From Chondromyces sp. (lineage in GTDB: Bacteria > Acidobacteriota > Thermoanaerobaculia > Thermoanaerobaculales > Sulfomarinibacteraceae): a DNA stretch of 64,000 nt. Where the stretch lies: contig DATIVB010000056.1 in the NCBI GenBank assembly GCA_035466375.1, forward strand, positions 10,075 to 74,074, read 5' to 3'. Made by a program: the position numbers and the translations under genes. The notes under the pieces are model-generated. The model was not told the origin of the DNA and did not search any database. It was given only the letters and a program-made list of their open reading frames with translations. Every line of letters begins with the position of its first letter. Within the stretch, counting starts at the first letter, position 1. This document shows, one piece after another, positions 23,423-60,957 of the stretch.

Positions 23423-24300
23423 GATGAGTACCTCCAGCGTTCCTTGTCGCGGTGGTGCACCACCACCTCATGACCGGCGCCGGCGAGCTCGCGCGCCACC
23501 CTCTCAGCCGCGTAGACCGATCGGTGTTTGCCGCCGGTACAGCCGAGCGCGATCCCGAGGTGCGTCTTCATTTCCTTGACGTACCTCGGCAGCAGGAACG
23601 ATACCAGGTCCATGATGTGGCTGACGGCTTCCTCGACCTCGGGGTAGGCGTCGAGCCAGGTCTTGACTGCGTCGTCGTCCCCCGAGAGTGCCCGGAGCTC
23701 CTGCACGAAGAACGGGTTGGGGAGAAATCTCACGTCGAACACCAGGCTTGCGGTGGCGGGGACCCCCTGCATGTAGGAGAAGCTCTGCACCTCGATGGTG
23801 AGCCGTGAACGGCGGTCGTCGCCGCCGCCCAGGGTCTGCACCTGCCGCCTCAGGTCGTGCGGCGACAGGTTCGTGGTGTCGATGATCAGGTCGGCGAGCT
23901 CGCGAAACTCGGCCAGCGCGGACCGCTCCTCGGTGATGGCCCTCTCCAGCGTCAGGTCGCGCAGCGGGTGCGGCCGGCGGGCGACCGAAAATCGCCGCAG
24001 CAGGATCTCCGGGGAGGCCTCCACGAACACCAGACGGACCCCCGGGTACGTGCTCCTGAGCTCTCTGAAGAACTCCGGAAAGAGCTGGATCATGCCCCTG
24101 GTGCGGACGTCGAGAACCACCACCAGACGGTCCTTCTCCTCCTCGGTGCGAGCGAAGAGGAGAGGCACCAGCTCGAGCGGGATGTTGTCCACGCAGAGGT
24201 AGCCGATGTCCTCCAGGCTGCGGCTGAGCAGCGTCTTGCCGGCGCCGGAGAGACCGGTGATCACGAACGGACCGTTGAACGTGGGCTCAGCCGCCGTCAC
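23419..24300 (-). CDS. rapZ: RNase adapter protein RapZ (YhbJ-type P-loop ATPase)
   Basis: Motifs are FVITGLSGAGKTLLSRSLEDIGYLCVDNIP, DVRFLPNPF and GCTGGKHRSV. Confidence 0.9.
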   Translation of the reverse strand: MTAAEPTFNGPFVITGLSGAGKTLLSRSLEDIGYLCVDNIPLELVPLLFARTEEEKDRLVVVLDVRTRGMIQLFPEFFRELRSTYPGVRLVFVEASPEILLRRFSVARRPHPLRDLTLERAITEERSALAEFRELADLIIDTTNLSPHDLRRQVQTLGGGDDRRSRLTIEVQSFSYMQGVPATASLVFDVRFLPNPFFVQELRALSGDDDAVKTWLDAYPEVEEAVSHIMDLVSFLLPRYVKEMKTHLGIALGCTGGKHRSVYAAERVARELAGAGHEVVVHHRDKERWRYSS

Positions 24301-25279
24301 GGTGACCGCCCTGAGCCATCAGGTTGACGTTCTCCAGGAAACCGCGCTCGTCCTGGATGCCCCGCTGCGCCAGCAGACACTTGCGGACCGCGGTCTCGAC
24401 CATGATCGCGAGGTCGCGACCCGGCGCCACCACCATGGTGTACTTCGGGACCTCGACGCCCAGAATCTCCTGGGTCGATGTCCACGCGCTGGGGCGCTCC
24501 ATCATCTCCTCGCGCCACCGCTGCTCCATCTCCCGCGCCTGGGGTGTCAGCTTGGTGAGCTGGATGACCAGCGACACCGACACCGCCGGCGAAGTGGCGG
24601 TCATGCCGAAGTGCTTGCGCACGTCGATGATCCCGACGCCGCGCAGCTCGAGGTAATTCTCGAGCAGCTCGTGCGGGCCGCCGAGGAGGCCGTGGTGGTG
24701 GGTGCGCCGGATGACGACAGTGTCGTCGGCGACGAGGCGGTGGCCCCGGTACACGAGCTCCAGCGCACACTCGCTCTTGCCGATGCCCGGGTCGCCGATG
24801 ATCAGGGTGCCGAGCGAGAACACGTCGATCAGCACGCCGTGCAGCTGGACCCGCGGCGCCAGGGTGTCCTCGAGGTAGTCGGAGATCAACTCGATGGCCT
24901 CGGCGGTTTTGACCGGCGTGACCAGCAGCGGCACCTCGGCCGCGTCCGCGGCCGCGCAGACGCCAGGGCTGGGGCGCTTGCCTTTGGTCGACACGACGCA
25001 CGGCACCTCGAGCTGCATCAGGCAGGCCAGCCGGCGCTCGGCCTCGGCCTCGGGAAATGTGGCCAGGAAATCGTATTCCGATTCGCCGAGGATCTGCAAC
25101 CGTCCGGGCTTGACGTACGGGAGGTAGCCGGCCAGCGCGAGGCCGGGTTTCTGGATGCGTGGGTTGGAGATCCGGCGTCGGGCGAGGCCCGCTGTGCCGG
25201 CCACGACCTCGAGGCGGAGCGGCTCGAGCCGCTTCTCCTCGAGGAGGAGGGAAACCGATGTCGCCCGCGGAGCGGTCAC
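24287..25279 (-). CDS. hprK: HPr kinase/phosphorylase
   Basis: HGVLIDVFSLGTLIIGDPGIGKSECALELVYRGHRLVADD (P-loop) and LELRGVGIIDV match the HprK pattern. Confidence 0.9.
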   Translation of the reverse strand: MTAPRATSVSLLLEEKRLEPLRLEVVAGTAGLARRRISNPRIQKPGLALAGYLPYVKPGRLQILGESEYDFLATFPEAEAERRLACLMQLEVPCVVSTKGKRPSPGVCAAADAAEVPLLVTPVKTAEAIELISDYLEDTLAPRVQLHGVLIDVFSLGTLIIGDPGIGKSECALELVYRGHRLVADDTVVIRRTHHHGLLGGPHELLENYLELRGVGIIDVRKHFGMTATSPAVSVSLVIQLTKLTPQAREMEQRWREEMMERPSAWTSTQEILGVEVPKYTMVVAPGRDLAIMVETAVRKCLLAQRGIQDERGFLENVNLMAQGGHRDGG

Positions 25280-25740
25280 AGCCCCTCCGCGGCGGCGGTT
25301 TCGCAGACAGCCGCGGCGACCTCTTTCGCGGTGGCCGCCGCCAGCAGCGCCGACCGCAGGTCGCGGCGCTTGAGGACGCGGGCGATCTGCGACAGGACCT
25401 GCAGGTGCGCAGCCGGCTGGTCCGGCGGCGAAAGGACCACGAACATGAACGAAACCGGCGTTTCGCTGCCGTCACCGAAGTCGACTCCCGTCCGCAGACG
25501 GGCGAGCGAGATGGCGATCGTCCTCAGCCCCTGCAGCTTGCAGTGCGGAATCGCGAAGCCCTCCCCCACCGTGGTCGAGCCCAATGCCTCCCGCGCCAGC
25601 AGGCCCTCCACGAGCTCTTTCCGGTCGAGGTCGAGCGCCGGTCCCCAGCGCTCGGCCACCGCCGCCAAAGCGGACCGCACATCCTCGGCTTCGATGTCGA
25701 GGAAGACGTTTTCGGGGTCGATCAGGTTGTGGATCTTCAT
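25276..25740 (-). CDS. ptsN: PTS EIIA-Ntr (nitrogen regulatory IIA)
   Basis: 154 aa. REALGSTTVGEGFAIPHCKL carries the phosphorylatable His. The gene sits in the rpoN-hpf-ptsN order. Confidence 0.85.
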   Translation of the reverse strand: MKIHNLIDPENVFLDIEAEDVRSALAAVAERWGPALDLDRKELVEGLLAREALGSTTVGEGFAIPHCKLQGLRTIAISLARLRTGVDFGDGSETPVSFMFVVLSPPDQPAAHLQVLSQIARVLKRRDLRSALLAAATAKEVAAAVCETAAAEGL

Positions 25741-26288
25741 CAGAGCTCGGGAGTGATCAATCCCAGGTTTCTGTCATCGCGACGGTACAGAACGTTGATC
25801 CGATCGGTGGTGGCATTGCGGAAGACCAGGAAGCCCTGCCCCAGGTCGTCGAGTTGGAGGACCGCCTCCTCGATCGACATCGGCTTGATGGCGATCGAGC
25901 TGCGCTCGACGATCCGCGGCTCGCCGGACGCGATCGACTCGCTCTCGAGGACGTCGAGCGTCCATCCCTGGTCGACCTTGGCTTCCGAGCCGGCGCGTTT
26001 CTTGTGGTCCTTGAGCCGCGCTTTGGCGCGCCGAGCCTGGATCTCCAGCTTGTCCACCGCCTCCTGAATGGCGGCCGTCATGTCCTTGTTCTGGGTCCTC
26101 GATTGGACGTCGAAGTCCTTGCCCTTGATCGACAGGTCGACGACGTGCAGGTGGCGCTCGAGGCCGACCTCCAGCCGGATGTCCAGGATGTCGTTGAAGT
26201 ACTTGGAGATCCTGGCCAGCTTCTTCTCGGCCAGCTGCTTCGATTGATCGGTCAGGACGACTTTTCGGGCGATGTAGTCGACTTTCAT
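25740..26288 (-). CDS. hpf: Ribosome hibernation promoting factor (long HPF)
   Basis: It has an N-terminal S30AE/YfiA domain (LTDQSKQLAEKKLARISKYF) and a C-terminal dimerisation domain (IAIKPMSIEEAVLQLDDLGQGFLVFRN). Confidence 0.9.
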   Translation of the reverse strand: MKVDYIARKVVLTDQSKQLAEKKLARISKYFNDILDIRLEVGLERHLHVVDLSIKGKDFDVQSRTQNKDMTAAIQEAVDKLEIQARRAKARLKDHKKRAGSEAKVDQGWTLDVLESESIASGEPRIVERSSIAIKPMSIEEAVLQLDDLGQGFLVFRNATTDRINVLYRRDDRNLGLITPEL

Positions 26289-26301
26289 GGCATTCTCCCG
26301 T

Positions 26302-27795
26302 TCAGAATATCTTCTTCCGCTTGTCCGACGAGGGGATCATCATCTCCTCGCGGTACTTGGCGACGGTGCGCCGCGCGAGCCTGATGCCTTCCTTCTGCAG
26401 CATCCGCATGATCTTGGAATCGGACAGGGGGCGTTCCGGGTCCTCGGCCTCGATCAGCTTGCGGATCCGCTCCTTGACCACCATCGACGAGATGTTCTCG
26501 CCCCGCGCGGAGTCCACCCCGGAGTGGAAGAAGTACTTCATCGGAAACATCCCACGCGGGGTGTACATGTACTTGTTGCTGACCACCCTGGAGATCGTCG
26601 ACTCGTGCATGCCGATGTCCTCGGCCACCTGGCGCAGAACCATCGGTCGCAGGTGCTCGATCCCGTGGTCGAGAAAATCGCTCTGGAAGCTGACGATGCT
26701 CTGCGCCACCTTGTAGATCGTTCGCTGGCGCTGGTCGATGCTCTTCATCAGCCACAACGCCGAGCGCATCTTGTCCCGCAGGTACTCGTTGGCCTGCGGG
26801 TCCAGGCTGCGGCCCTTGAGCAGATTGTGGTAGCGGGAGTTGATGCGCAGCCTGGGGAGACCGTCGTCGTTGAGCGTGATGACGTGCTCTCCGTCCACCT
26901 TGCGCACGTAGACGTCGGGTTCGATGTACTGGTTGTCGTCCCGGGTGTAGGCGCGCCCGGGCTTCGGCTCCAGGCTCTGGATGACGTCCAGGATCGGCCG
27001 CAACTCCGCGACCTCCGCACACCCGATCGCCGCCGCGAGCGGATCCCAACGTTGGTGCAGGAGATCGTCCCAGCAGTTCGAGATCGCCAGCCGGGCTCGC
27101 TCCAGCACCTCGATCTGCTCGGGCTCGGTGCAGTCCCGCAGCAGCTGCTCCACCTGCGCCGCGAGGCACTCCTGGAGGTTCGAAGCCGCGATCCCCGGCG
27201 GGTCGAGCGAGCGCACCACCTCGACGGCGGCCATGGCGCAGGCCTCGCCGCAGCCCGTCCCATCCATGATCTCCTCGGTCGAGGCGCGCAGGAAACCGTC
27301 TTCGTCGAGGTTGCCGATGATGAACTCGCAGGCCTCCAGGATCTCCGGCGGACAGTCGAGGAGATGGAGCTGCCACAGCAGGTGGTCGTACAGGCTCCCG
27401 CTCGCGGAGACGATGTTCTCGAGCCGGTTGTCCTGCTCGGTCGACGGCGCCGACATCGACGGGCCCTCGTTGCGGGCGTCGCCCAGGTAATCGGCGAAGA
27501 AGGCCTCGACGTCGATGTCGGCGTAGGTCTCCTCCTCCGACGGCAGCCCGTCGTCCGCTGGCGCCGCGGTCTCGGCGGTCGCCTCGTCCCCGGGGCCGTC
27601 GAGCTGGCCTTCGCCGGCGACCGCGTCGTCGGGCGGTTCGTCGTCCTCGAGCATCGGGTTCTCGAGGATCTCCTGCGCGAGCGTCTCCTCGAGCTCCAGC
27701 CGCGACAGCTGGAGCAGCTTGATCGCCTGCTGCAGCGACGGTGTCATCACCAGCCGCTGCGCCAGCTTCAAGCGGAGTTTCTGTTCCAATGCCAT
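26302..27795 (-). CDS. rpoN: RNA polymerase sigma-54 factor
   Basis: It has an N-terminal Gln/Leu region (MALEQKLRLKLAQRLVMTPSLQQAIKLLQLS), a core-binding region, an HTH (QVAEDIGMHESTISRV) and the RpoN box ARRTVAKYR. Confidence 0.96.
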   Translation of the reverse strand: MALEQKLRLKLAQRLVMTPSLQQAIKLLQLSRLELEETLAQEILENPMLEDDEPPDDAVAGEGQLDGPGDEATAETAAPADDGLPSEEETYADIDVEAFFADYLGDARNEGPSMSAPSTEQDNRLENIVSASGSLYDHLLWQLHLLDCPPEILEACEFIIGNLDEDGFLRASTEEIMDGTGCGEACAMAAVEVVRSLDPPGIAASNLQECLAAQVEQLLRDCTEPEQIEVLERARLAISNCWDDLLHQRWDPLAAAIGCAEVAELRPILDVIQSLEPKPGRAYTRDDNQYIEPDVYVRKVDGEHVITLNDDGLPRLRINSRYHNLLKGRSLDPQANEYLRDKMRSALWLMKSIDQRQRTIYKVAQSIVSFQSDFLDHGIEHLRPMVLRQVAEDIGMHESTISRVVSNKYMYTPRGMFPMKYFFHSGVDSARGENISSMVVKERIRKLIEAEDPERPLSDSKIMRMLQKEGIRLARRTVAKYREEMMIPSSDKRKKIF

Positions 27796-27875
27796 GTTCG
27801 TATCAGCACCTCGTCAGCGACGGGCGACCGTGTCGCGCTTCTCGGGACCCGGCGGCGACCTCGAGCCTTCGCGGC

Positions 27876-28610
27876 TCAGAGTCTGAAGTCCTCGCCGAGG
27901 TAGATTCGACGCACATCCAGGTTTTCAGACAGATCGACCGGCTCGCCCGTAGCAAAAATCTTGCCGTCTTTGATTATATAGGCGCGATCCGTGATCTTCA
28001 ATGTCTCGCGAACGTTGTGATCCGTAATTAAAACACCTATACCCAATGACTTGAGCCTTCGAATGATGCGCTGGAGGTCGAGCACCGCGAGCGGGTCGAT
28101 GCCGGCGAAGGGCTCGTCGAGGAGAATGAAGGTCGGTTCGGTGGCCAGCGCGCGCGCGACCTCGAGCCGCCGGCGTTCGCCGCCGGAGAGGGTCTCGGCG
28201 CGCTGCCCGTGCAGGTTGGCGAGGCCGAAGTCCTCGAGCAGGTTCCGGATCCTGCGGTGAGCCTCCTTGGCATCGACGCCGAGCGCCTCGAGGATCAGCC
28301 AGATGTTGTCCTCCACCGTCAGGCGCCGGAACGAGCTCGGCTCCTGCGCCAGGTACGAGACACCCATCCGGGCCCTGCGGTACATGGGCTCGTGCGTGAT
28401 CTCGCGGTCGCCGAGGATGACCCGGCCCTCGTCGGGGCGCACCAATCCGACCATCATGTAGAAGGTGGTCGTCTTGCCTGCGCCGTTGGGCCCCAGCAGC
28501 CCGACGATTTCTCCCGGCGCGATGTCGAGGGTGATGTCGTCGACCACCCAGCGCCCGCGGTAGGCCTTGCGCAAGCCCTTCGCCGCCAGGTCGAGCGCTT
28601 TCGGGCTCAA
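27876..28610 (-). CDS. lptB: LPS export ABC transporter ATP-binding protein LptB
   Basis: The TTG start at 28610 forms a TTGA overlap with the upstream stop. Motifs are [31 protein letters not shown] and [12 protein letters not shown]. The longer 27876-29132 ORF is not supported upstream of the TTG. Confidence 0.9.
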
Positions 28611-30559
28611 GGCCGCTCCTCCGGGAAGTAGATGGTCTCGGTCCCTCCGGTGACCGAGACCGTACCATCGGCCTGATTCCAGGTCAACGAAGACCCCGAG
28701 ACCTCGTTGCCGCGGGGGTCGGCGATCTTCACCGGCGAGCCGGTCACCGTCACCAGCTGGGTGCTGGTCTCGCGCCGCGCGAACTGCCCGGTCATGCGAC
28801 GCCCCGTCTCCAGGATGACGATCTCCACCGCCCCGACAGCCTCCACCGCCGCGATGTCGTCGTTGTCGTCGAAGAAAATGCTCAGCTCGGCCGCAGCCAG
28901 CGTGTGCTCCGGGTCCGAGTACCGGACGTTGCCGCGGTACACCGCCGAGGCCACGGCCTGGTCGTAGTCGAGCGACCTCGCCACCACCACGACGTCCGCG
29001 CCGGGCTCGCCCTCGACCCCGAACTCGGCGGCCGGAAAGGTCGTTCGAACGTGACCCGAGGCGCGCAGGCTCACCGGATCGGCGTGGTGGAGGACCACGT
29101 CGTCGGCGAGCAGCAGGCGGTGCCCTTGCCACAGTCGGGCCGATCCGCTCAGGTGGTAGACCGACCCTTCCTCCGTCACCTCGAGTGTGTCGCTGGCGAA
29201 GTGCGCGGGCTGGCCGGCGGCCGCGTCGGCGCCGCCCACCAGTGACACGTCGCGAATCTCGCCCTGCACGTTGCCGCGGGCCTCGGACCTCCCCTCACGG
29301 TTGAAGAGCTGCGCCTGATCGCAGCTCAGCCGCCCCCGCTCGGACGTCAGCAGCACCCGTTCCGGTCCGGTGGGGTCGCCGTGCAGCATGACCAGGCCGG
29401 CCTGCGGCGCCATGCGGGCCCGGTGCCCCCTCGCCTCCACTCCCTCGCTGCGGACCATGACGTTGCGCAGCAGCTCCACGTCCGTCGCGCGGCCGTCGGC
29501 GAACCACACCCGGGCGGCGACGGACTCTCCCAGTCGGACCGCGCCTTCGGTCGGGACCTCTCGAATGCAGACGCCTCCCTCCGCACGCAGGTTCACGAGC
29601 CCTTCCGGGCCCAGCGCTGCGCGCATGACCCAGCTCTCCAGCTCGCGCTCGAAGTACCCCTCGCCGCCGACGAAGCGCACCCGGACCCAGGGTCCGGTGG
29701 TCGTGGCGTCCACCTGCCAACGCCCGGCGCCGTCGCGGACGGCGACGACACGCTCCATCCAGGCCTCGACTTCGCCGCCGCCGTCCGGCGTCAGCGAGCG
29801 GGCCTCGACCCCGCCCGACATCTCCACCCTCCGCGGCGGGCCTTCGCCGGGCTCGAGGTCCGCCGCCATCGCCGGCGCCTCGATCCGGGTGTCCGCGAAG
29901 CGGAGCTCGGCGCCCTCGGGGAAGGCCACCCTGCCCCGCGTGCGCTCGTAGACAGTCCGCGGAGCGATCAGGGTGGCGCCTTCTCCGGTGTGGAGGGTCG
30001 TCCCCCCGTCGAGGACGATCTCATCCCGCTCGAGGTCGTAGCTGGCGCTCCCCGCCCGGCCGAAGGTCGCGCCGGAGACGAATCGCACCTCTGCGCCGGC
30101 CGTGAAGACGCGTGAGCTCGCGGAGAAGCTGCCGGCGTCGGTGGTCAGGCTGGCGCCGCTCGGCAGCTCCAGTCGCACGCTCCCCGCGAGCTCCGCGTCA
30201 CGCGTCTGAATGTTGAACCGGGCGCCGTCGCAGGTCAGGACCGGCCCCGGCTCACCGTCGCGGTAGAACTGCAGGCGCACGCCCTCGATCTCGTGCCAGC
30301 CGGATGACAGGCCGAGGGTCCGCTTGGACAGCAGCCGGAAGATCTCGCGCCCCGCGACCCGCTCGACGAACTCGAACCCCGTGTAGATGCCGACCGCCCG
30401 GTCGCCGTCGCCGTTGCTGATCTGGTCGCCGTCGAGCGCTTCGATGGGCGTCTTCAGCAGCCGCAGGCGGTCGGCGATGAAGCCGCCGAGGGTCAGGAGG
30501 AGGAGGACGATCCCGGCCGCGCTCACCCTGCGGATCCAACGCCGCGATGCGACGCTCAT
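28607..30559 (-). CDS. Membrane-anchored periplasmic protein with LptC-like and OstA/LptA-like beta-jellyroll modules (650 aa)
   Basis: It has an N-terminal anchor ([15 protein letters not shown]) followed by repeated beta-strand-rich segments. The C-terminal part ([26 protein letters not shown]...[36 protein letters not shown]) resembles LptA/OstA_N. Its position directly upstream of lptB-rpoN matches the usual lptC-lptA slot. Confidence 0.6.
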
Positions 30560-47454: not shown

Positions 47455-47542
47455 CGGGGCGGGTCCTTTCGCGGCCGGACGAGCGGCGATTGTACAGGGT
47501 GTCGGTTCATCGGCCAAACGCCGCCCGTCGCCGGCGAGCCCT

Positions 47543-48769
47543 TCAGCGCCCGCCCGCGGCGCCCGGCGTCCTCTGCGGGGCCCGCACCGGCCGCCGGCTC
47601 GCGGCTCGCGAGGGCGCCACCAGCACCGGCACCTCGACCCGGGCGTGCTCGCCATCGTCGGTCGTGACCCGGATCCAGCCGCGCACTCCGGCACCCAGCC
47701 GGTCGGCGTCGAGCGCCTCGGCCAGACGGACCCGGAGCAATTGCCGCGTCCCCGCCACCTGCGGAGTCGGGACGGCCGAAAAGAGCTCCGGGTGGGAGAC
47801 CTCGACGCCGGCGATCGAGAACGCGCGGCCGCCGTTGTGGCTGAGGCTCAGCAGCAGGGAACGGCCGGAATCGTTGGATGGCGCGGTCGCCCACAGGCGC
47901 ACCGCCTCGGGATGGGCTTCCAGGATCGGCCGCACGCGCACCGTGTACGGGAGCTCGATCTCCGGCGCATCGGGATGGTTGGTGACCACCCGCAGGGTGC
48001 CGGAGTAGACCCCCGGCGCCGTGACCGGAGCGACGCTCAGTTCGAGCCAGACGTCGCCGGGCCCCGCTTCGGGCTCTCGTGCACCCCTCCGCGCCTGGCC
48101 CCATGGAGCGGGAGCGTCGGGGGCGGCCGGTTTCGCCGGCGATCCAGGCTGAGCGTCCGCGGCGCGGGCGGTCACCGTCAGGCCCGCCGCCTCGAGCTCG
48201 GGCGGGACGATCCGGAGGGCCTGCCCGTCGTCCCTGGACAGCAGCAGGCGCGCGCTGCCGGAGCCGCCCTCGATGAGCGTGATCGCCAGGGCGGGGCTCG
48301 GCTTCACCGTCACCGGCATGTAGAGTTCGACGGCGAAACGGAGGCGGAGCTCGCGCGCCGCGGCGGCGTCGGTGACGACCCCGATCGACTTCGAGACGCG
48401 GCCGCTCTGGGTGCTGCGGGTGGACATCTTCGCGCTCAGCGTGCCCGACGAACCTGCCGGGATGACCGAGTCGTACTCGGCCACCGCGCACCCTCAGGAG
48501 GGCGCTGCGCGCAGGATCCGCACGTCCCGGTCGGTGTCGTTGACGAACTCGAAGGTGGCCGTCACCGTCGATCCCGCGACCGCTCGGCCGAGGTCGAGGT
48601 CGGCGTCCTCCACCCGGAAGCCAGCCGGCTCCTCCCCCGCCGCCGCGACGGCACTCAGCGCGAGAGACACCGCCACGAACACGCGGCAGAGTCGTCGGGG
48701 ATCTTCCTTCATCGGGGCCTCCGGGCTGCTCTTTGGGTCCTCGCGGTGCCCGCAGAGCAACGACGGCAC
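47543..48769 (-). CDS. DUF1573-like secreted protein interrupted by one in-frame TGA (48494-48496) at the first Cys of the SCGC motif. It is either a selenoprotein candidate or a pseudogene.
   Basis: The N-terminal piece (48494-48769) has a signal peptide and TVTATFEFVNDTDRDVRILRAAPS, then TGA. The same frame continues GCAVAEYDSVIPAGSSGTLSAKM into the 47543-48484 ORF. DUF1573 domains normally read ..S-C-G-C-.. Confidence 0.55.
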
Positions 48770-48788
48770 CCCGAGGCCACCGATTGTA

Positions 48789-49559
48789 TCAGCCGGCGAC
48801 CCGGTGCTCGGACAGGACCCGTCCCCCGGTCGTCACGACCACGCATTCCACCGGCACCTGGCGCCGGGCGCGGCGGGCGGCCTCCTCGGCGAGACCGACG
48901 AGGCCGCGGCAGCACGGGACCTCCATCACCACCACCTGCAGCGAGCGGATCCCGGCCTCGTCGATCATCGCCACCAGCTTCTCGAGGTACACCTCCTGGC
49001 GGCTGTCGAGCTTGGGACAGGCGATCGCCAGGGACCGCCCCGCGAGGAAGCGCTGGTGGAAATCCCCCGTCGCGAAGGCGACGCAGTCGGCTGCGAGCAG
49101 GACGTCCGCGCCGCGGAAGAAGGGCGCCGACGGAGGCACGAGGTGGAGCTGGACCGGCCAGTGCCGGAGCTGCGACGGCGACCCCTCGCCCGAAGCCGCG
49201 GCAGGCGCGGCGGCGGGCTCGAGGAACTGTGCGCGCGAGCCGGGGCAGCCGCCGCCGGGCGCGGGCTGTGCGACGACGTGCAGCGCCGGCCGGCGAGGCG
49301 CCGGCTCCGTCGCCTGCCGCTGCGCGAGGTGGCGGGCGACCGCCGCCTCGTCGAAGGCCTCCGCGTCGCGCCGGGTGACCGTGATCGCCCCCTGGGGGCA
49401 GTGCCCGAGGCACGCGCCGAGGCCGTCGCAGTAGGCGTCGCTGATCAGCCTCGCCTTGCCTTCGATGATGGCGATCGCACCCTCGGCGCAGGAGCTCACG
49501 CAGTCGCCGCAGCCGTCACAGAGCTCGTCGTCGATCTCGACCACGTCGCGGATCGGCAT
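48789..49559 (-). CDS. 4Fe-4S dicluster domain-containing protein
   Basis: It has two ferredoxin-type Cys clusters (CDGCGDCVSSCAEGAI and CDGLGACLGHCPQGAI) plus a Cys-containing C-terminal domain (ACPKLD, EVPCCRG). Confidence 0.8.
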   Translation of the reverse strand: MPIRDVVEIDDELCDGCGDCVSSCAEGAIAIIEGKARLISDAYCDGLGACLGHCPQGAITVTRRDAEAFDEAAVARHLAQRQATEPAPRRPALHVVAQPAPGGGCPGSRAQFLEPAAAPAAASGEGSPSQLRHWPVQLHLVPPSAPFFRGADVLLAADCVAFATGDFHQRFLAGRSLAIACPKLDSRQEVYLEKLVAMIDEAGIRSLQVVVMEVPCCRGLVGLAEEAARRARRQVPVECVVVTTGGRVLSEHRVAG

Positions 49560-49562
49560 GGT

Positions 49563-49922
49563 TCACTCCGCCCGAGCTTCGCGCAGCATGGTCAGCAGCA
49601 TCCGGCACGGTTCAGGCGCCCGCAACGCGTGCGGAACCCCCGCCGGCATGCGCACGATCTCGCCGCCGCCCACCATCACGTCCTTGCCGCCGATGGTCAG
49701 CTCGAGCGATCCGTCCAGAACCTGAACCAGGGCGTCGAAGGGCGCCGTGTGCTCGGACAGGCCCTGGCCGCCGTCGAAGGCGAAGAGCGTGACGCTGCCG
49801 CCGCTGCTCTTGGCGAGCACCCGGCTGACGATCGAGCCCTCCGCGACCTCGATCAGCGCCGCGAGGGAGCTCGCACGGTCGCCGGGAAGCTGTTCTGCTG
49901 ACTTCGAACCCGTTGTCTTCAT
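49563..49922 (-). CDS. Cupin-domain protein
   Basis: ATG at 49922 (MKTTGSK). GGSVTLFAFDGGQGLSEHTAPFDALVQVLDGSLELTIGGK...GEIVRMPAGVPHAL is a cupin motif. Confidence 0.75.
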   Translation of the reverse strand: MKTTGSKSAEQLPGDRASSLAALIEVAEGSIVSRVLAKSSGGSVTLFAFDGGQGLSEHTAPFDALVQVLDGSLELTIGGKDVMVGGGEIVRMPAGVPHALRAPEPCRMLLTMLREARAE

Positions 49923-49997
49923 ATTGAACCTCCGCTGTCTGTCTCGGATCACCGGACCCAGTGTGCCCTGGGTGGCGCTCCGCGTCCTTGACGCCGG

Positions 49998-51269
49998 TCA
50001 AGTGCGCCGCTGGTACACGGCCCGGGACGTCATCACGCCGACCGTCGCACCGGGCCGCAGCGAGCGCCACTCATCGGCGACCGTCTCCGGGTCCGGGGCG
50101 GGATCGAAGCCGAGCCGGCGCGCCAGGTCCTCCTCGAGGCTGGAGCAAAGACGGACGCGGAAGCGCCCCGTCTTCTCGACCAGGCGCAGGGTCGTGTGCC
50201 CGTACTGGACCCAGCCTTCGGAGAGCCGGCCGAGGATCGCCCCCGGCCTGGGATCGTGGAGGAAAGGCGCCATCGCCTCCGAACCCGCTCCGCGGTCGAG
50301 GGCGGCGAGGAAGAGCAGCTCACCGCCCGGAGCCAGAAAGGAGCATGCGGCGTCGAGCGCCTTGTGGGCCTGGATCAGGGTGGCATCCGAAGGCCCCCCT
50401 CCTGCGCTCGCAACCATGAGTTCGAAAGGCTCCCCCGTCGCCACCTCGAAGCCCGCCCGCACCCGCGCGACGGCCGCATGGAAGGCGTCCCGCCACGGGC
50501 CGGCGAAAGCTCCGGCGACGCCGCCGTCGCGCCCCGGCACGAGACAGATCGCCATCGCCGGCGGACAGAGCTCGGCGGCCCTCGCGATCTCCTCCGCCAC
50601 CGGGTTGCCCTCGAGGCACCCCGGCCCGCAGGCAGGGTGGCGCCGCCACGAGTTGCCGCTGGCCGACTCCAGCACCAGGGCGTGGTTGGCCTGAATCTCA
50701 GCGTGACCGGCCACGCCGGGGAAGACCATCTTCGGGCCGCCGCCGAAACCCGCGAAGTAGTGGTGGCTCACGGTGCCGACCGTGATCAGCAGGTCGCACG
50801 CGAGCGCGCTGCGGTGGAGGCGCAACGGCAGCCCCGGGCGCAGATCCCCCACCGCCACCAGCGAGGCGTCGTCGCGGCTGTCGTGCTCGACGAGCAACAC
50901 GCCCTCCGGCAGGGGCCCGACGATCTCGCCGAGGCGCTTGGGACCGGCTGCGGGATGGGTGCCGCAGGCAACGAGCACGGTCGTTCGCCGCGCCTCGACG
51001 CCGCCTTCGCGCAGGCGCGCGAAGATCGGCGGCAACACCTGCGGCAGCGCGGCGTTCCGCGTCCCATCCGGCACCACGATCGTCGCGCTCCCGACGCCGC
51101 CGGCGAGGCTCGTGAGCGCCGGTCCGGCGAGCGGAAGGTCCACGGCCGCCGCGACCAGAGGCGCGGGATCGCTCGCGGCTGCGGGTGCCGAAGGTGCGAG
51201 GGGGCGCACCTTCAAACCCCGCAGGTCGACGGCCAGATGGCCGTCCGCGTACGGGAGTTTGACAATCAC
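49998..51269 (-). CDS. LarA-like (nickel-dependent lactate racemase family, DUF2088 N-domain) protein
   Basis: 423 aa. ATIVVPDGTRNAALPQVL, VLVACGTHP and TVSHHYFAGFGGGPKMVFPG resemble the LarA family. The assignment is from memory and was not searched. Confidence 0.75.
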   Translation of the reverse strand: MIVKLPYADGHLAVDLRGLKVRPLAPSAPAAASDPAPLVAAAVDLPLAGPALTSLAGGVGSATIVVPDGTRNAALPQVLPPIFARLREGGVEARRTTVLVACGTHPAAGPKRLGEIVGPLPEGVLLVEHDSRDDASLVAVGDLRPGLPLRLHRSALACDLLITVGTVSHHYFAGFGGGPKMVFPGVAGHAEIQANHALVLESASGNSWRRHPACGPGCLEGNPVAEEIARAAELCPPAMAICLVPGRDGGVAGAFAGPWRDAFHAAVARVRAGFEVATGEPFELMVASAGGGPSDATLIQAHKALDAACSFLAPGGELLFLAALDRGAGSEAMAPFLHDPRPGAILGRLSEGWVQYGHTTLRLVEKTGRFRVRLCSSLEEDLARRLGFDPAPDPETVADEWRSLRPGATVGVMTSRAVYQRRT

Positions 51270-57051: not shown

Positions 57052-60000
57052 TCACCCGGTGTCCTTGAGGCCGAGATTCCGGAGGTGGTAGAGCAGCGCC
57101 TGGCGAGAGATGCCGAGCTCGCGCGCGGTTGCGCTGCGGTTGCCCCCGTTGCGCTGCAGCGCGGCGCTCAGGAAGCGACGGCGGAACTCGCGCTGCGCCA
57201 CGTCCCAGGAGCCCCCGACTTCGGAGCTCGGGGCGGCGATCGGCAGGTACTCGGGGCGGACCGTCTCCCCCTGGGCCCGCACCATCGCCACCTCCACCAC
57301 CTGCCGCAGCTCGCGGACATTTCCCGGCCAGTGGTAACGGCGGAGCAGGGCCTCGGACTCGGGGCTCCAGGTCGGCCTCGGCAGCCCGTGGCGGGCGTGG
57401 GCCTCGCGTTCGAAGAGCTCCCGCAACAGCGGAATGTCCTCGGTGCGGGCGCGCAGCGGGGGGATCGGCACCGCCGGAGCCGCGATGCGGAAGTAGAGGT
57501 CGCGCCGGAAGTCGCCTTCCCGGATCTGCCGGTCCAGATCGCGGTGGGTCGCCGACACGAACCGCACGTCGACCTCCCTGCTGACGTGGGTACCGACCGC
57601 TCGCACCTCGCGAGACTCGATGAAGCGCAGGAGCTTGACCTGGAGCGCGGGCTCCAGGTCGCCGATCTCGTCGAGAAACAGGGTGCCTCCGTCGGCTGCG
57701 ATCGCGAGACCGCGCCGCGACCGGTCGGCGCCCGTGTAGGCCCCTTTCACCGAACCGAAGAGCTCCGCCTCGAGCAGGGTCGCGGGAATCGCCGCGACGT
57801 TGACCGCGATGAAGGCGCCCTTTCTCCGCGAAAGCGTGTGCAGCGCCCGCGCCGCAACCTCCTTGCCGACCCCAGTCTCTCCCAACAGAAGCACGGGCAG
57901 GTGGGTTGGCCCGAGCTCGCGCAGCTCGCGCCGAAGCGCGCGCGCCGCATCGGACACACCGAAGAAACCGGTCTCGTCGGCGCCGCTGTCCGCCGTCTCC
58001 GGCCGCCTCGGCAGCACGAGATCGAGCACGCCGAGCAGGAGGCGCCCTGAGGGGCCCTCGTCCAGAATGCCCCCGAGCGGCACGGCTACCAGTCGTCCGT
58101 GGCGCACCTCACCGCCGGGCGCGCCGTGTCCGTGCCGCCAGACCGGGGTCCCGTCGACGGCATCCCGGATCTCCAACCCGGTAACTCCGAGACTCGCCTC
58201 GAGCCTTTCGACGTCCTGCGGATCGAGGGTCTCGAGGCCGCGCGCCTCGACGACCCGGGCGAGGACGGAGACCACGGCGCCGGCCCGCTCCCCGAGGCCG
58301 CTCAGGGACTCCGCCCAGCCCTCGAGACCCGAGCGGCGAAGCAGCGCCGTGAGACGCGACCGAAGCTCCGCGGACACCGGGAATCTCTCCCCCCGCACGC
58401 GTTCACCGAGCGCGAGCGCGAAACCGTCTCCGAGGCGGTCCGCCCGGAGGCCGAGCATCGCCGCCTTCGTTGCCTCGGGCCCGGAACCGCGTACGAGCTC
58501 CGCCGCGAGCGACACGCCCCACGCATCCGGTTCGGCCGACTCTACGGGCTCACCGGCGACGGCTGTTGCGAGGGCCCTCCAGCTCTCGCCCTCCTGCCCC
58601 GCACGCGCCAGCAGGCTTCTCGCGCGCCGCGGCTCGCCGTCGAGGAGGGCGCGGGCACCGCGCAGCAATGCGAGGCCCTCCGCGAAACGCGGGTCTTCGG
58701 CGTCGATCTCGTGCTCGAAATCCTCCAGGCGTCGACGGAACAGGGGCTCGTCGCCGGTCGCGAGAGCAAGCCGCGCGCATTCCCCGAGCACGAACGGCTC
58801 CCGGGGCTCGTCGGCCGCCAGGTCGCCCAGGCGCTCGGAGGCCCGAGGCACCCGCAGCTGGTCCACGTCGGCGACCGCGAGGTTGAAGAGCGGCAGCGAG
58901 GTTCGATGGCGAAAACCGGCCGCGCGCAGCAGGTGGAACGCACGCAGGTGGTGGCCTTCCGCCTCCCGGCTCCGCCCTTCGCTCAGCGCCACCGCCCCGA
59001 GGTCGAGCTCGACCATGCCCCGCAGTCCGGGGCCGACAACGTCCCGCGCGACCACCTCGAGGAGGCGCCGCGCCGTGCGCGGCTTGCCGCAGTCGAGATG
59101 CCAGAGCGCCCGGCGGTGCGCGAGCTGGGCGCGGAGGCCGGGGTGTCCGGCCGTGGCAAGGTGCCGCCAGGCGGGGTCGTCGAGCCGTTCGGGCGTGAGG
59201 CGGTAGGCGAGCTCGATTTCGAGACGGCGGGGCAGCAGCTCCTCGAGGCGGCGACGGCAGCTGTCGATCATCGCAGCCGCCTCGGAGGCAGCCGAGCGCT
59301 GCGAGCGACCGATGTCGTCGAGCACCAGAGCGGCCGTCTCCGCCGCCGCCCGCGGGTTCTCCGCCGCATCGCGGGGCCCCGGCAGGCGCCGTGGCACGGC
59401 GGGTTTCGGATCGAGGGCTTCGCACCACAGCTCGGCGGCCACCCGACTCTTTTCAGACAGTGGCGCCAGGGCGGAGCGTGCGCCGAAAAGATCCAGTACG
59501 GCAAGACAGGCCTCCGCCAGCAGCAGCTGCACGGCTTCGCCGAGAGCGCCGCTGGCGACCATCGACAACAGCTCGCGCACCGGAATCGCTTCGAGGCGGT
59601 CCAATCCCGACCTCGCCCAGGCCTCGAGCTCCGCGGTGTCGCCGTTGCCGAGGGCGGTGTGCAGGAGGTGCAGCGGATCATCGGGCGGATAGAGCCCGGC
59701 CACCTTCAGGTGCCGCGGGTCGGTCTCGAGGGGCACCGGCTCGGGCAGGCGCCAGCGCGGTCCGGCCTCCACCACAGCCGACCTCCGCCGCTCGACCTCG
59801 AGCTGAGCGGGAGCCAATCCGCCCTGCAGCGCGATGAAACCCGGAGGCAGTCCGTCGGGCGACAGCGCTAACCAGCTCGTCAGCGCGCTGCCGGTGAGGC
59901 CGCGACCCGCCGTGCTGCGGCCGGAACGGCGCGGCGCCAGGGCGCCGCGGAGACTCTCGGTCAGGGCCATCCGGTCGGAATCCTCGAACGGTGCGAAGCG

Positions 60001-60957
60001 GTCCTGTCGCCCCTCGACGAATCTCCGCGCGACATCGGGCGGCAACCCGGCCACCGCGAGATGCCCGGTCAGAGACCCGCGGCCCCTCGGCGGTGGCTCC
60101 GCCCGCCAACCACGCGGGAAAAGGCCGATCCCGACGGCGCTGCAACCGCTGCGGGCGGCCCACCGCGCCATCGAGTTGAGCTCCCCGTTCGACAGCCGGC
60201 CGACGATGATCACCGTGCCGTCGCCACGGACTGCCGGAACCGGCGGCGGGCCCGACGCGCCGTCCTCGGCCGGCCACACCCAGGCCCGCCCGCCGCGCCT
60301 GCGGAGCTCGCACCACAACGCCGCCCCCAGGCGCCGTGCAGCCGTCGGCACGGGCACCCGCCACAGCGCGATCAAGCCCTCCTCCGGCGGTGGCAACGGG
60401 TTCCATCTCAGCGCCCACAGCGCCCGGGCGGTTTCGTGGTCGAGCGGCTGGTGCAGCTCCCGGAGCTGGCGCGCAATCAGCGTATCGAAGGACGACAGGC
60501 CCGGGCCCGGCCGTTCGACCTCGAGCTCGGACGTGGAAAGGCCGACAGCGTCGCCGATCCGTCCCATCACCGCCGACCACGCCGCCTCCGTTGCGGCCTC
60601 GCCGCCGCCGAGACGGTCGACCAGTTGCGACAGCGGCAGAGGATAGCGCGCGAAGACCGGACGGATGCCGTCGGGCGTGCGGAACAGGCAATCTCCCGAG
60701 AATGCGGATCGAGGCAGCCAGAGGTCGAACTCGGCGAGCAGCGCGGCGGCCGCGGTCATCCGGGCCGCGGCGCGGTAGCGCTCGCGCTTCGGCAGCGAGG
60801 CCGGGCGCACCGCCGACGACAGCTCCCCCGCCCCCTCGCGAACGGCCCCCGTAATCTCCGGCTCGGGGAGCGTCGGGTGCTCGACGAGCAGTGCCGCCGG
60901 GTGCGGGATCCGCACGCCTGCCCCTACGCCGGCGGGAGCTCCGTGAGCCGGGCCCAC
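57052..60957 (-). CDS. Sigma-54-dependent transcriptional activator (bEBP, Fis-type HTH) with a very large (~850 aa) unrecognised N-terminal region
   Basis: The C-terminal AAA+ sigma-54 interaction domain reads VLLLGETGVGKEVAARALH, EAELFGSVKGAYTGA, TLFLDEIGDL, VRFVSATHRDL and WPGNVRELRQVV. The Fis-type HTH is GGNRSATARELGISRQALLYHLR. The start is uncertain: the ORF maximum overlaps the aroA end, and the GTG at 60915 or ATG at 60759 are possible. Confidence 0.85.
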   Translation of the reverse strand: MGPAHGAPAGVGAGVRIPHPAALLVEHPTLPEPEITGAVREGAGELSSAVRPASLPKRERYRAAARMTAAAALLAEFDLWLPRSAFSGDCLFRTPDGIRPVFARYPLPLSQLVDRLGGGEAATEAAWSAVMGRIGDAVGLSTSELEVERPGPGLSSFDTLIARQLRELHQPLDHETARALWALRWNPLPPPEEGLIALWRVPVPTAARRLGAALWCELRRRGGRAWVWPAEDGASGPPPVPAVRGDGTVIIVGRLSNGELNSMARWAARSGCSAVGIGLFPRGWRAEPPPRGRGSLTGHLAVAGLPPDVARRFVEGRQDRFAPFEDSDRMALTESLRGALAPRRSGRSTAGRGLTGSALTSWLALSPDGLPPGFIALQGGLAPAQLEVERRRSAVVEAGPRWRLPEPVPLETDPRHLKVAGLYPPDDPLHLLHTALGNGDTAELEAWARSGLDRLEAIPVRELLSMVASGALGEAVQLLLAEACLAVLDLFGARSALAPLSEKSRVAAELWCEALDPKPAVPRRLPGPRDAAENPRAAAETAALVLDDIGRSQRSAASEAAAMIDSCRRRLEELLPRRLEIELAYRLTPERLDDPAWRHLATAGHPGLRAQLAHRRALWHLDCGKPRTARRLLEVVARDVVGPGLRGMVELDLGAVALSEGRSREAEGHHLRAFHLLRAAGFRHRTSLPLFNLAVADVDQLRVPRASERLGDLAADEPREPFVLGECARLALATGDEPLFRRRLEDFEHEIDAEDPRFAEGLALLRGARALLDGEPRRARSLLARAGQEGESWRALATAVAGEPVESAEPDAWGVSLAAELVRGSGPEATKAAMLGLRADRLGDGFALALGERVRGERFPVSAELRSRLTALLRRSGLEGWAESLSGLGERAGAVVSVLARVVEARGLETLDPQDVERLEASLGVTGLEIRDAVDGTPVWRHGHGAPGGEVRHGRLVAVPLGGILDEGPSGRLLLGVLDLVLPRRPETADSGADETGFFGVSDAARALRRELRELGPTHLPVLLLGETGVGKEVAARALHTLSRRKGAFIAVNVAAIPATLLEAELFGSVKGAYTGADRSRRGLAIAADGGTLFLDEIGDLEPALQVKLLRFIESREVRAVGTHVSREVDVRFVSATHRDLDRQIREGDFRRDLYFRIAAPAVPIPPLRARTEDIPLLRELFEREAHARHGLPRPTWSPESEALLRRYHWPGNVRELRQVVEVAMVRAQGETVRPEYLPIAAPSSEVGGSWDVAQREFRRRFLSAALQRNGGNRSATARELGISRQALLYHLRNLGLKDTG

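What the first reader, a model, noticed from the sequence alone, without database searches (positions are those of the whole stretch)
48464..48496. In-frame TGA exactly at the first Cys of the SCGC motif of a DUF1573-like protein, with a hairpin starting 11 nt downstream
Seen in sequence: the minus-strand reading is ...GTG CGG ATC CTG CGC GCA GCG CCC TCC TGA GGG TGC GCG GTG GCC GAG TAC GAC..., which translates to V R I L R A A P S [TGA] G C A V A E Y D. The two ORFs 48494-48769 (signal peptide plus the start of the domain) and 47543-48484 (the rest) are in the same frame and are separated only by this codon.

Established knowledge: DUF1573 domains characteristically carry a ...S-C-G-C-... motif at this point, TGA and TGC differ by one base, and Sec commonly replaces Cys in redox motifs. 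In E. coli fdhF the functional upper SECIS stem-loop must sit 11 nt after the UGA.

Seen in sequence: here GGCCGAGU-acg-ACUCGGUC (plus coordinates 48464-48482) begins after an 11-nt spacer. It has 7-8 bp and a G in the loop.

Inference: this could be a Sec-containing DUF1573 protein (U-G-C motif), which I am not aware of being described. Alternatives are a recent nonsense mutation (pseudogene), a sequencing error, or two separately translated pieces (a GTG at 48484 could restart translation).
Basis: partly seen in the sequence, partly recalled or inferred. Interest (0 to 1): 0.6.

Follow-up and report, generated by a model that had tools for sequence, protein, structure and literature searches.

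The report
Selenocysteine codon in a DUF1573 protein
The in-frame TGA is almost certainly a real selenocysteine codon in one secreted three-domain protein that public annotation splits in two, but this kind of selenoprotein (DUF1573 / OS_HP2, U-x-C motif) was already described in 2007-2008.

Summary

- **It is not a pseudogene, an error or a two-piece gene.** The TGA sits at the identical codon in all 42 Sec-type loci checked (31 distinct sequences, 34-100% protein identity). Both sides are under purifying selection. The GTG "restart" codon is absent in 12 of 31 sequences.
- **A syntenic orthologue has TGT (Cys) at this position.**
- **A 39-nt block after the TGA has almost no synonymous variation** (pS 0.11 against 0.58-0.59 in the flanks).
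- **H2 is the better candidate for SelB binding.** A distant Sec-type relative keeps only H2, and the Cys orthologue has lost H1 and changed the H2 loop.
- **The family is already known.** DUF1573/OS_HP2 selenoproteins with a U-x-C motif are listed in the literature and in NCBIfam NF041425. This Thermoanaerobaculia subfamily scores below that model's cutoff.
- **Not testable here:** whether the genome carries the Sec machinery. Protein function is unknown.

Verdict: a new member of a known kind, of modest interest.

The parts
47543..48712 (-). Complete selenoprotein gene: 389 codons plus stop, with one internal TGA. Public annotation splits it into a 72-aa and a 313-aa 'hypothetical protein'.
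   Evidence: Every orthologue has exactly one internal stop.
48783..48788 (-). -10-like box TACAAT (GATACAATCG), overlapping the stop codon of the upstream Fe-S gene. This is a likely promoter for the gene itself.
   Evidence: GATACAAT is found about 66-76 nt upstream of the ATG in most orthologous loci (30-40 nt in three, about 90 in one) and is absent in three. The assignment rests on this conservation only. The consensus scan did not list this site.
48718..48722 (-). Shine-Dalgarno GGAGG, 5 nt before the ATG at 48710-48712.
   Evidence: Read directly from the sequence. GGAGG/GGAG is conserved before the ATG in the orthologues.
48638..48712 (-). N-terminal signal peptide, about 25 residues: MKEDPRRLCRVFVAVSLALSAVAAA|GEE.
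   Evidence: All full-length orthologues share the pattern of basic N-region, hydrophobic core and small residues. This is inferred from sequence; no signal-peptide predictor was run. There is no conserved twin-arginine motif or lipobox.
48338..48613 (-). DUF1573 Ig-like domain (residues 34-125). It spans the TGA.
   Evidence: Pfam PF07610, 54.4 bits against cutoff 26.1. Best NCBIfam hit is NF041425 OS_HP2, 54.9 bits against cutoff 100.
48494..48496 (-). Sec codon UGA (residue 72) of the P-S-U-G-C motif.
   Evidence: TGA in 36 of 36 orthologous loci, in 5 more and in a distant relative. The syntenic Cys-type orthologue has TGT.
48488..48490 (-). Partner Cys74 (TGC) of the U-G-C motif.
   Evidence: TGC in 30 and TGT in 1 of 31 sequences.
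48443..48481 (-). Block with suppressed synonymous variation (codons +5 to +17). This is the SECIS candidate as a whole.
   Evidence: Third-position entropy is 0-0.5 bit here (0.9 at codon +17) against a median of about 1.4 elsewhere, Mann-Whitney p = 3.8e-6. Mean pS is 0.109 against 0.594 upstream and 0.581 downstream.
48465..48481 (-). Hairpin H1: GCCGAG-(U/C)(A/U)(C/U)GA-CUCGGU, 6 invariant base pairs.
   Evidence: RNAalifold consensus. Energy -7.7 to -8.6 kcal/mol. Destroyed in the Cys-type orthologue, -2.0 kcal/mol. Absent in the distant Sec-type L044.
48444..48461 (-). Hairpin H2: CCCGGC-AGGU(UC/GG)-GUCGGG. This is the proposed SelB-binding stem-loop. GGU occupies nt 43-45 counted from the U of UGA.
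   Evidence: RNAalifold consensus. Energy -7.6 to -13.2 kcal/mol across variants. The rare third bases A (GCA/CCA, 29/31) and T (GGT, 28/31) are kept although GC3 in this genome is about 0.9. L044 has a different stem but GGU at the same nt 43-45. The E. coli fdhF SECIS has a GCA-GGU-C loop.
47609..48322 (-). Two further Ig-like beta-sandwich domains (residues about 131-261 and 262-368). Domain 2 contains a disordered Pro/Ala-rich insert.
   Evidence: AlphaFold2 model of the C-terminal fragment: mean pLDDT 80, about 90 in domain 3. Foldseek hits are tandem Ig-like repeat proteins, mostly ciliary central-apparatus chains.
48789..51269 (-). Conserved upstream neighbours: Fer4/AF_0155 Fe-S protein (48789-49559), cupin (49563-49952) and a LarA_N-domain protein (49998-51269).
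   Evidence: Pfam hits. The same order is found in nearly every locus that extends far enough, including the Cys-type orthologue. A functional link is not shown.

Best explanation
Window 47543-48712 (minus strand) is one gene for an exported protein of about 39 kDa made of three tandem Ig-like domains. Residue 72 is selenocysteine, encoded by UGA.

Proposed mechanism:
1. Translation starts at the ATG at 48712, behind a GGAGG Shine-Dalgarno sequence.
2. At the UGA, SelB carrying Sec-tRNA(Sec) is recruited by a SECIS element inside the coding sequence, 15-53 nt downstream.
3. The SECIS consists of an invariant proximal hairpin (H1) and a distal hairpin (H2) that presents an A-GGU loop like that of E. 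coli fdhF. H2 is the likely SelB contact. H1 is a subfamily-specific accessory, for example a spacer or stabiliser.
4. The product is exported through the Sec translocon. It carries a P-S-U-G-C motif in a tight turn between two beta-strands of the first (DUF1573) domain. There the Sec72/Cys74 pair most likely forms a redox-active selenenylsulfide or binds a soft metal or metalloid.

What is shown: single gene, conserved UGA, Sec/Cys orthologue pair, RNA-level constraint, fold.
What is inferred: SelB use, the respective roles of H1 and H2, export, and the chemistry of the U-G-C motif.
For: 1. The TGA is at the identical codon in all 36 orthologous loci (31 distinct sequences; 34-100% protein identity in the part after the TGA), in 5 further loci and in a distant relative. 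These come from independent assemblies and sequencing runs. Three of them are identical to the window across the first 300 nt of the gene.
2. Each joined ORF has a signal peptide and only this one internal stop.
3. There is purifying selection on both sides of the TGA. The upstream 44 codons have pN 0.279 and pS 0.594, with pairwise dN/dS of 0.09-0.61. Downstream pN is 0.37 and pS 0.581.
4. A full-length orthologue in the same gene order (LarA_N, cupin, Fer4/AF_0155, this gene, cmk, rpsA) has TGT (Cys) at the site. More distant full-length homologues have C-G-C.
5. Synonymous variation collapses only in codons +5 to +17 (p = 3.8e-6).
6. This block folds into H1 and H2, each at or below -7.6 kcal/mol.
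7. The Cys-type orthologue serves as a natural control. It has six synonymous changes at sites that are invariant or nearly so in the Sec-type genes, has lost H1 and has a different H2 loop.
8. The distant Sec-type L044 has a different H2 stem but GGU at the same distance from the UGA.
9. TGA is the ordinary stop codon of 45 of 52 predicted genes in the window, so there is no genome-wide reassignment.
10. DUF1573/OS_HP2 with a UxC motif is a recognised selenoprotein family. Sec use is documented in Acidobacteriota.
Against: - No selA, selB, selD or tRNA-Sec gene lies in the 64-kb window or in any fetched locus.
- Neither hairpin meets the published bacterial SECIS consensus in full. H1 has no G in the first two loop positions. 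The H2 loop starts 38 nt after the UGA, and the consensus range is 16-37 nt.
- There is no covariation in either stem, because both are almost invariant. The structure therefore rests on conservation, not on compensatory change.
- Part of H2's pairing potential follows from the protein motif P-x-G-G-x-G, and some of it persists in the Cys-type gene (-9.0 kcal/mol).
- There is no protein-level evidence for selenium.
- The function of the motif is inference only. The fold searches returned generic Ig-like repeats.
Confidence: 0.88

Rival explanations
1. SECIS-independent read-through. The UGA is decoded by a near-cognate or suppressor tRNA (Trp, Cys, Gly or Arg), and the conserved downstream RNA only stimulates read-through. 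No selenium is involved.
For: The Sec machinery could not be shown. Neither hairpin fits the bacterial SECIS consensus completely.
Against: The UGA replaces a Cys of a C-G-C motif, exactly as in the catalogued DUF1573/OS_HP2 selenoproteins. The H2 loop has the G-G-U typical of SelB-binding loops, and its GCAGGU matches E. coli fdhF. Keeping a leaky stop for more than 40 diverged lineages when TGC or TGT is one mutation away is hard to explain unless the inserted residue is better than Cys.
Confidence: 0.06
2. Two separately translated products: a 72-aa secreted peptide, and a 313-aa protein restarted at the GTG at 48484. This is how all public annotations call it.
For: UGAGGG provides a Shine-Dalgarno-like GAGG 7 nt before the GTG. 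Gene callers consistently choose this start.
Against: The codon at that position is GTG in only 17 of 31 sequences and TTG in one. GTT, GTC, GTA, GCA and CTG occur in 12, and CTG is at best a rare start; the other four are not starts. The split falls in the middle of one Ig-like domain. It would leave the large piece without a signal peptide. The Cys-type orthologue is a single ORF.
Confidence: 0.02
3. A recent nonsense mutation, so the gene is a decaying pseudogene.
For: TGA differs from TGC or TGT by a single base.
Against: The same TGA is present in 42 loci down to 34% protein identity. There are no other stops or frameshifts, except in two MAG contigs (L015, L042). In L042 many neighbouring genes are fragmented as well. 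dN/dS is below 1 on both sides of the TGA.
Confidence: 0.01
4. A sequencing or assembly error at 48494-48496.
For: None beyond the prior possibility.
Against: The identical TGA appears in independent assemblies of the same population from several runs (SRR30765334, SRR30765337, SRR30765339, ERZ27272642) and in all relatives.
Confidence: 0.005

Closest known systems
OS_HP2 / DUF1573 selenoprotein family (Zhang & Gladyshev 2007, PMC1976440; GOS survey 2008, PMC2398784; NCBIfam NF041425)
   Same: Same Pfam domain (PF07610) and same U-x-C (U-G-C) motif. Sec replaces the first Cys of the conserved S-C-G-C. Cys-type homologues are in the majority. Function is unknown. NF041425 is the best NCBIfam hit.
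   Different: It scores 54.9 bits against the model's cutoff of 100, as do all relatives tested (55-96 bits). NCBI's pipeline therefore does not recognise it, and it is deposited as two ORFs. This is a Thermoanaerobaculia lineage with three Ig-like domains and a fixed genomic context. I could not obtain OS_HP2 DNA to compare the SECIS elements.
E. coli fdhF SECIS (the reference bacterial SECIS)
   Same: A stem-loop inside the coding sequence just after the UGA. The apical loop contains G-G-U, preceded by GCA: GCAGGUC in fdhF, GCAGGU(U/G) here.
   Different: In fdhF the GGU starts 19 nt after the UGA. From established knowledge, the minimal stem-loop must start 11 nt after the UGA. Here the GGU starts 40 nt after the UGA, and a separate invariant hairpin (H1) fills the gap. 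I found no bulged U in the consensus H2.
Published bacterial SECIS consensus (bSECISearch model, as summarised in PMC13188914 Fig. 2)
   Same: H2 has a 6-nt loop, a 6-7 bp stem, G at loop position 2 followed by G-U, and MFE at or below -7.5 kcal/mol.
   Different: The H2 loop begins 38 nt after the UGA (39 nt in L044; in L005/L006 the local fold has 8 pairs, which by my count puts the loop at 39 nt). The stated range is 16-37 nt. H1 lies within the range (18 nt) but has no G in its first two loop positions.
Cys-type syntenic orthologue P0032 (358 aa, JGI metagenomes)
   Same: Same gene order, same three-domain architecture, same P-S-C-G-C-T-V-A-D-Y-D-x-V-I-P-A-G-G motif, 42% identity.
   Different: It has TGT in place of TGA. 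H1 is lost and the H2 loop is changed. The sites that are invariant in the Sec-type genes vary freely here.

Membership tests
Bacterial selenoprotein gene (UGA-Sec with an in-frame SECIS) | The in-frame UGA aligns with a conserved Cys in homologues (a Sec/Cys pair). | tested here: met
   The syntenic orthologue P0032 has TGT. P0016, P0139, P0142, P0156, P0157 and P0167 have C-G-C.
Bacterial selenoprotein gene (UGA-Sec with an in-frame SECIS) | The UGA is conserved in orthologues, with coding constraint on both sides. | tested here: met
   TGA in 42 of 42 Sec-type loci. dN/dS is below 1 both upstream and downstream.
Bacterial selenoprotein gene (UGA-Sec with an in-frame SECIS) | A downstream stem-loop that fits the bacterial SECIS consensus: loop 3-9 nt, stem 4-16 bp, G in the first two loop positions, 16-37 nt from the UGA, MFE at or below -7.5 kcal/mol. 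| tested here: inconclusive
   H1 meets all criteria except the loop G. H2 meets all except the distance (38 nt). Both are under strong RNA-level constraint. bSECISearch itself was not available.
Bacterial selenoprotein gene (UGA-Sec with an in-frame SECIS) | The genome encodes selA, selB, selD and tRNA-Sec. | not testable with these tools
   None are present in the window or the loci. Sec use is reported in other Acidobacteriota.
Bacterial selenoprotein gene (UGA-Sec with an in-frame SECIS) | Selenium is incorporated into the protein. | not testable with these tools
   This needs 75Se labelling or mass spectrometry.
Pfam PF07610 (DUF1573) | Score above the gathering threshold, with the conserved S-C-G-C position. 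| tested here: met
   54.4 bits against 26.1, residues 34-125. The motif is P-S-U-G-C.
NCBIfam NF041425, OS_HP2 family (seleno)protein | Score at or above the curated cutoff of 100 bits. | tested here: not met
   54.9 bits for the window protein. Relatives score 55-96 bits, including the distant Sec-type L044 and Cys-type homologues. It is the best-scoring model, but below threshold.
E. coli fdhF-type SECIS | An upper stem-loop with a GGU(C) loop and a bulged U, starting 11 nt after the UGA. | tested here: not met
   The hairpin at 11-12 nt (H1) lacks the GU loop. The GGU-loop hairpin (H2) starts 32 nt after the UGA.

The most novel reading that the evidence does not exclude
The SECIS of this subfamily may be a two-hairpin element that falls outside the current bacterial consensus. 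In this reading, the SelB-binding GGU loop lies 38-39 nt from the UGA, and an invariant proximal hairpin (H1) folds away about 18 nt. That would bring the distal loop into register with the ribosome, or pause the ribosome. This would be a distinct class of bacterial SECIS, and it would explain why SECIS-based predictors and NCBI's pipeline miss these genes. A second, weaker reading is that the exported U-G-C protein works together with the always-adjacent LarA-like, cupin and Fe-S proteins as one redox or metal-handling module.
Probability: 0.25. Interest if true: 0.45.

Novelty: new member of a known kind. Interest (0 to 1): 0.3.

Why it matters
- **Annotation.** The result corrects a systematic error. 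In every public record I saw, this gene is deposited as two "hypothetical proteins". About 80 of the best 150 cluster representatives of the wider family begin just after the U-G-C, in the way expected for the same truncation. I confirmed the TGA in DNA for only one distant member. The curated OS_HP2 model therefore appears too narrow.
- **A test system for the SECIS.** The data give a clean natural experiment on which nucleotides a SECIS needs. Sec-type and Cys-type orthologues sit in the same genomic context, and a 39-nt block is frozen only in the Sec-type genes. The GGU loop lies slightly beyond the accepted distance window, which makes the spacing rule of bacterial SECIS elements directly testable.
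- **Limits.** It does not reveal a new kind of biology. The selenoprotein family has been known since 2007, and its function remains unknown.

Tried and rejected
- **tRNA-Sec and Rfam:** no tRNA or tmRNA gene in the window and no tRNA-Sec in the 35 loci scanned. There were no Rfam matches at gathering threshold, and only chance-level matches around the site.
- **Window annotation with Pfam**: housekeeping, chemotaxis, PTS/rpoN and LPS genes. No sel genes and no other known selenoprotein family.
- **Scan for other in-frame TGAs** with coding signal on both sides: only ordinary gene boundaries and antisense frames. There is no second selenoprotein candidate, and no second copy of H1 or H2 in the window.
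- **Covariation test**: uninformative, because both stems are invariant.
I folded the C-terminal fragment and the Cys-type homologue P0016 instead.
- **Solved structures:** a profile search gave nothing. Foldseek gave only generic Ig-like repeats.
- **Literature on Sec use in Thermoanaerobaculia:** nothing found.
- **Word-indexed search with the N-terminal domain** found only truncated fragments. The Cys-type orthologue appeared only in the exhaustive HMMER search.
Full report
**1. The observation**

The minus strand reads ...CTG CGC GCA GCG CCC TCC TGA GGG TGC GCG GTG GCC GAG TAC GAC TCG GTC..., exactly as reported. The TGA is at 48494-48496. The two ORFs, 48494-48769 and 47543-48484, share a frame.

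From the ATG at 48712, which has GGAGG 5 nt upstream, the joined reading frame has 389 codons. With Cys written at the TGA it matches Pfam DUF1573 over residues 34-125, so the match runs across the TGA (54.4 bits, cutoff 26.1).

The hairpin GGCCGAGU-acg-ACUCGGUC lies at 48464-48482, 11 nt after the TGA. In the window's own sequence it can extend to 11 bp. On its own the fold is not remarkable for DNA with 70% G+C: z = -1.47 for the 71-nt context.

**2. One gene or two?**

A protein search returned 15 relatives with 39-99% identity. All were called as proteins of 256-314 aa, and the twelve that reach this point start at M/V-A-E-(Y/F/H)-D-S-V, which is just after the TGA. The other three (283 aa) start 19 residues further on.

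I fetched their DNA and then scanned genome and metagenome collections.

- **The TGA is conserved.** Every one of 36 orthologous loci (31 distinct 180-nt segments) has TGA at the identical codon. None has TGC or TGT. Five more loci show the same. These include three whose first 300 nt are identical to the window, from separate runs and assemblies.
- **The ORFs are intact.** Each joined ORF has a signal-peptide-like N-terminus and no other stop.
- **Both sides are under purifying selection.** The 44 codons upstream of the TGA have mean pN 0.279 and pS 0.594, with pairwise dN/dS of 0.09-0.61. The downstream part has pN 0.37 and pS 0.581.
- **The restart codon is not conserved.** It is GTG in 17 and TTG in 1 of 31 sequences. 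GTT, GTC, GTA, GCA and CTG occupy the position in 12, and CTG is at best a rare start.
- **TGA is the normal stop codon here.** It ends 45 of 52 predicted genes in the window, so the codon is not reassigned genome-wide.

These results exclude a pseudogene, a sequencing error, a two-piece gene and an altered genetic code.

**3. The Sec/Cys pair**

An exhaustive profile search found 2572 relatives, 89 of them with E at or below 1e-30. About 80 of the best 150 cluster representatives begin at their own residue 1-3, aligned to the first 8 profile positions. This is what truncation just after the U-G-C would produce. About 14 are full length.

One full-length hit, P0032 (358 aa, 42% identity), is a true orthologue. 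It lies in the same gene order: SpoU, rhomboid, AMMECR1, LarA_N, cupin, Fer4/AF_0155, this gene, cmk, rpsA. Its motif reads P-S-C-G-C, with TGT at the site. More distant full-length homologues also have C-G-C.

A distant truncated member from a different genomic context (P0120, locus L044) has TGA at the same site...A-K-A-G-U-G-C-T-V-T-E-F-D....

A rough neighbour-joining tree, without support values, places the Cys-type P0032 inside the Sec-type clade and places the Sec-type L044 next to a Cys-type protein. This suggests repeated Sec/Cys exchange.

**4. The RNA signal**

Among conserved four- and six-fold degenerate codons along the whole gene, third-position entropy is typically 1.2-1.9 bits. 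It falls to 0-0.5 bit at codons +5, +9, +10, +12, +13, +14 and +16, and is that low at only one other site in the gene (Mann-Whitney p = 3.8e-6). Mean pS in codons +5 to +17 is 0.109, against 0.58-0.59 in the flanks.

The frozen block is GCC GAG nnn GAC TCG GTC ATC CCG GCA GGT (GGG/TCG) TCG GG(A/C), at 48443-48481. RNAalifold folds it into two hairpins:

| Feature | H1 | H2 |
|---|---|---|
| Sequence | GCCGAG-NNNGA-CUCGGU | CCCGGC-AGGU(GG/UC)-GUCGGG |
| Window coordinates | 48465-48481 | 48444-48461 |
| Distance from UGA to loop | 18 nt | 38 nt |
| Energy | -7.7 to -8.6 kcal/mol | -7.6 to -13.2 kcal/mol |

There is no covariation, because both stems are invariant.

The published bacterial SECIS consensus requires a loop of 3-9 nt, a stem of 4-16 bp, a G in the first two loop positions, 16-37 nt from the UGA, and MFE at or below -7.5 kcal/mol (PMC13188914). 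H1 fails only the loop-G rule. H2 fails only the distance rule, by 1 nt.

Three observations favour H2 as the SelB contact:

- Its loop keeps the rare third bases A (GCA or CCA in 29 of 31) and T (GGT in 28 of 31) in a genome with GC3 of about 0.9. This gives GCA-GGU, as in the E. coli fdhF SECIS, whose sequence I verified.
- The stem variants in L011, L033 and L005/L006 refold with a G-G still at the start of the loop.
- The distant L044 has no H1. It does have a different stem, CCGCCCC/GGGGUGG, that presents GGU at the same nt 43-45.

The Cys-type orthologue acts as a natural control. In the same 13 codons it has six synonymous changes at sites that are invariant or nearly so in the Sec-type genes. 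H1 is destroyed (-2.0 against -8.6 kcal/mol), and the H2 loop reads GGGAGG.

H2-like pairing partly survives in the Cys-type gene (-9.0 kcal/mol). This is because the protein motif P-x-G-G-x-G encodes a C-run followed by a G-run. That may have predisposed the family to acquire a SECIS, but this is inference.

**5. The protein**

AlphaFold2 models were built for the C-terminal fragment (mean pLDDT 80) and for the Cys-type homologue P0016 (mean pLDDT 79). Between them they indicate three tandem beta-sandwich domains. In P0016 the C-G-C lies in the turn between two strands of domain 1.

Foldseek returns tandem Ig-like repeat proteins, mostly ciliary central-apparatus chains, and an uncharacterised P. 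gingivalis protein, 2qsv. A sequence search against solved structures found nothing.

Apart from one Cys in the signal peptide, Sec72 and Cys74 are the only Cys-type residues in the protein. From established knowledge of C-x-C motifs, I infer a selenenylsulfide redox couple or a site for a soft metal or metalloid in an exported protein. This is not shown.

**6. Organism and context**

Titles of the related genome records name Thermoanaerobaculia, Candidatus Sulfomarinibacteraceae and Acidobacteriota, and one MAG is labelled Deltaproteobacteria. The NCBI entry for the identical N-terminal fragment is labelled 'Chondromyces sp.', which looks like a mislabel.

The window carries no sel gene and no tRNA-Sec. 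None of the 35 loci scanned carries a tRNA-Sec. The genome-level test for Sec machinery therefore remains open. Sec use is documented elsewhere in Acidobacteriota.

**7. Comparison with what is known**

The family is already catalogued:

- OS_HP2 was reported as a new selenoprotein in 2007 (PMC1976440).
- It was equated with pfam07610, motif UxC, with 2 Sec and 354 Cys sequences, in the 2008 GOS survey (PMC2398784).
- It is listed as 'DUF1573 domain-containing protein, UGC' in reviews from 2022 and 2026.

NCBIfam NF041425, 'OS_HP2 family (seleno)protein', is the best NCBIfam hit, but it scores 54.9 bits against a cutoff of 100. Six relatives score 68-96 bits. This explains why these genes are deposited as two ORFs.

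**8. Verdict**

This is a genuine selenoprotein gene by the usual in-silico criteria, and I put my confidence at about 0.88. It is a new member of a known family. Two details are modestly new: a two-hairpin SECIS with its GGU loop slightly beyond the accepted spacing, and a lineage in which 41 of the 42 orthologues whose DNA I read are Sec-type. Protein function and the Sec machinery remain untested.

Noticed in passing
window 48789-51269 (minus strand); also L001-L042 and the P0032 contig: A three-gene set always sits immediately upstream of the selenoprotein gene: a LarA_N-domain protein, a cupin and a Fer4/AF_0155 Fe-S protein. This holds for the Cys-type orthologue as well. The Fe-S protein is much better conserved (60-75% identity) than the selenoprotein (34-59%) outside the closest relatives. 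Whether this reflects a functional module or inherited gene order within one lineage is open.
   Followed up: partly
window 48781-48790 (minus strand) and 47489-47517 (minus strand): GATACAATCG overlaps the stop codon of the Fe-S gene. It is found about 66-76 nt upstream of the selenoprotein ATG in most orthologues. A similar TACAATCG, with TTGGCC 17 nt upstream, precedes cmk. Both look like -10 boxes, so these genes probably have their own promoters. The 5' UTR of about 65 nt was not examined for structure.
   Followed up: partly
(P0017) compared: The NCBI record for the identical N-terminal fragment (locus tag VLT81_01450) is labelled 'Chondromyces sp.'. The closest genome records are labelled Thermoanaerobaculia, Candidatus Sulfomarinibacteraceae or Acidobacteriota. 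The taxonomic label of the source MAG is probably wrong.
   Followed up: no
L015 (after about 10300) and L042 (whole locus): The orthologue in L015 shifts frame after SINVFTG. In L042 the orthologue is cut short at 143 aa, and many neighbouring genes are fragmented as well. These look like assembly indels in the MAG contigs, not biological decay.
   Followed up: no
window 13297-15747 (minus strand): A single 816-aa ORF gives two matches to the LptF/LptG permease family, so it appears to be a fused LptF-LptG.
   Followed up: no
window 20861-29132 (minus strand): An rpoN-type cluster: ABC ATPase (LptB-like), sigma-54, a ribosome hibernation factor, PTS EIIA-2, HPr kinase, RapZ, EIIA-man, HPr and enzyme I. 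It is ordinary, but it confirms a Gram-negative sigma-54 regulatory layout. A 1301-aa sigma-54 activator with a long N-terminal region that has no Pfam match lies at 57052-60957.
   Followed up: no
window 4206-9656 (plus strand): A chemotaxis cluster (CheW, MCP with Cache domain, CheA-CheY hybrid, CheR). It is preceded by two ORFs without Pfam matches (1676-3307 and 3314-4192).
   Followed up: no
NCBIfam NF041425 (OS_HP2) scores 55-96 bits, below its cutoff of 100, on every Sec-type and Cys-type member of this wider family that I tested. The curated model appears too narrow to catch a large share of U-G-C DUF1573 selenoproteins.
   Followed up: partly
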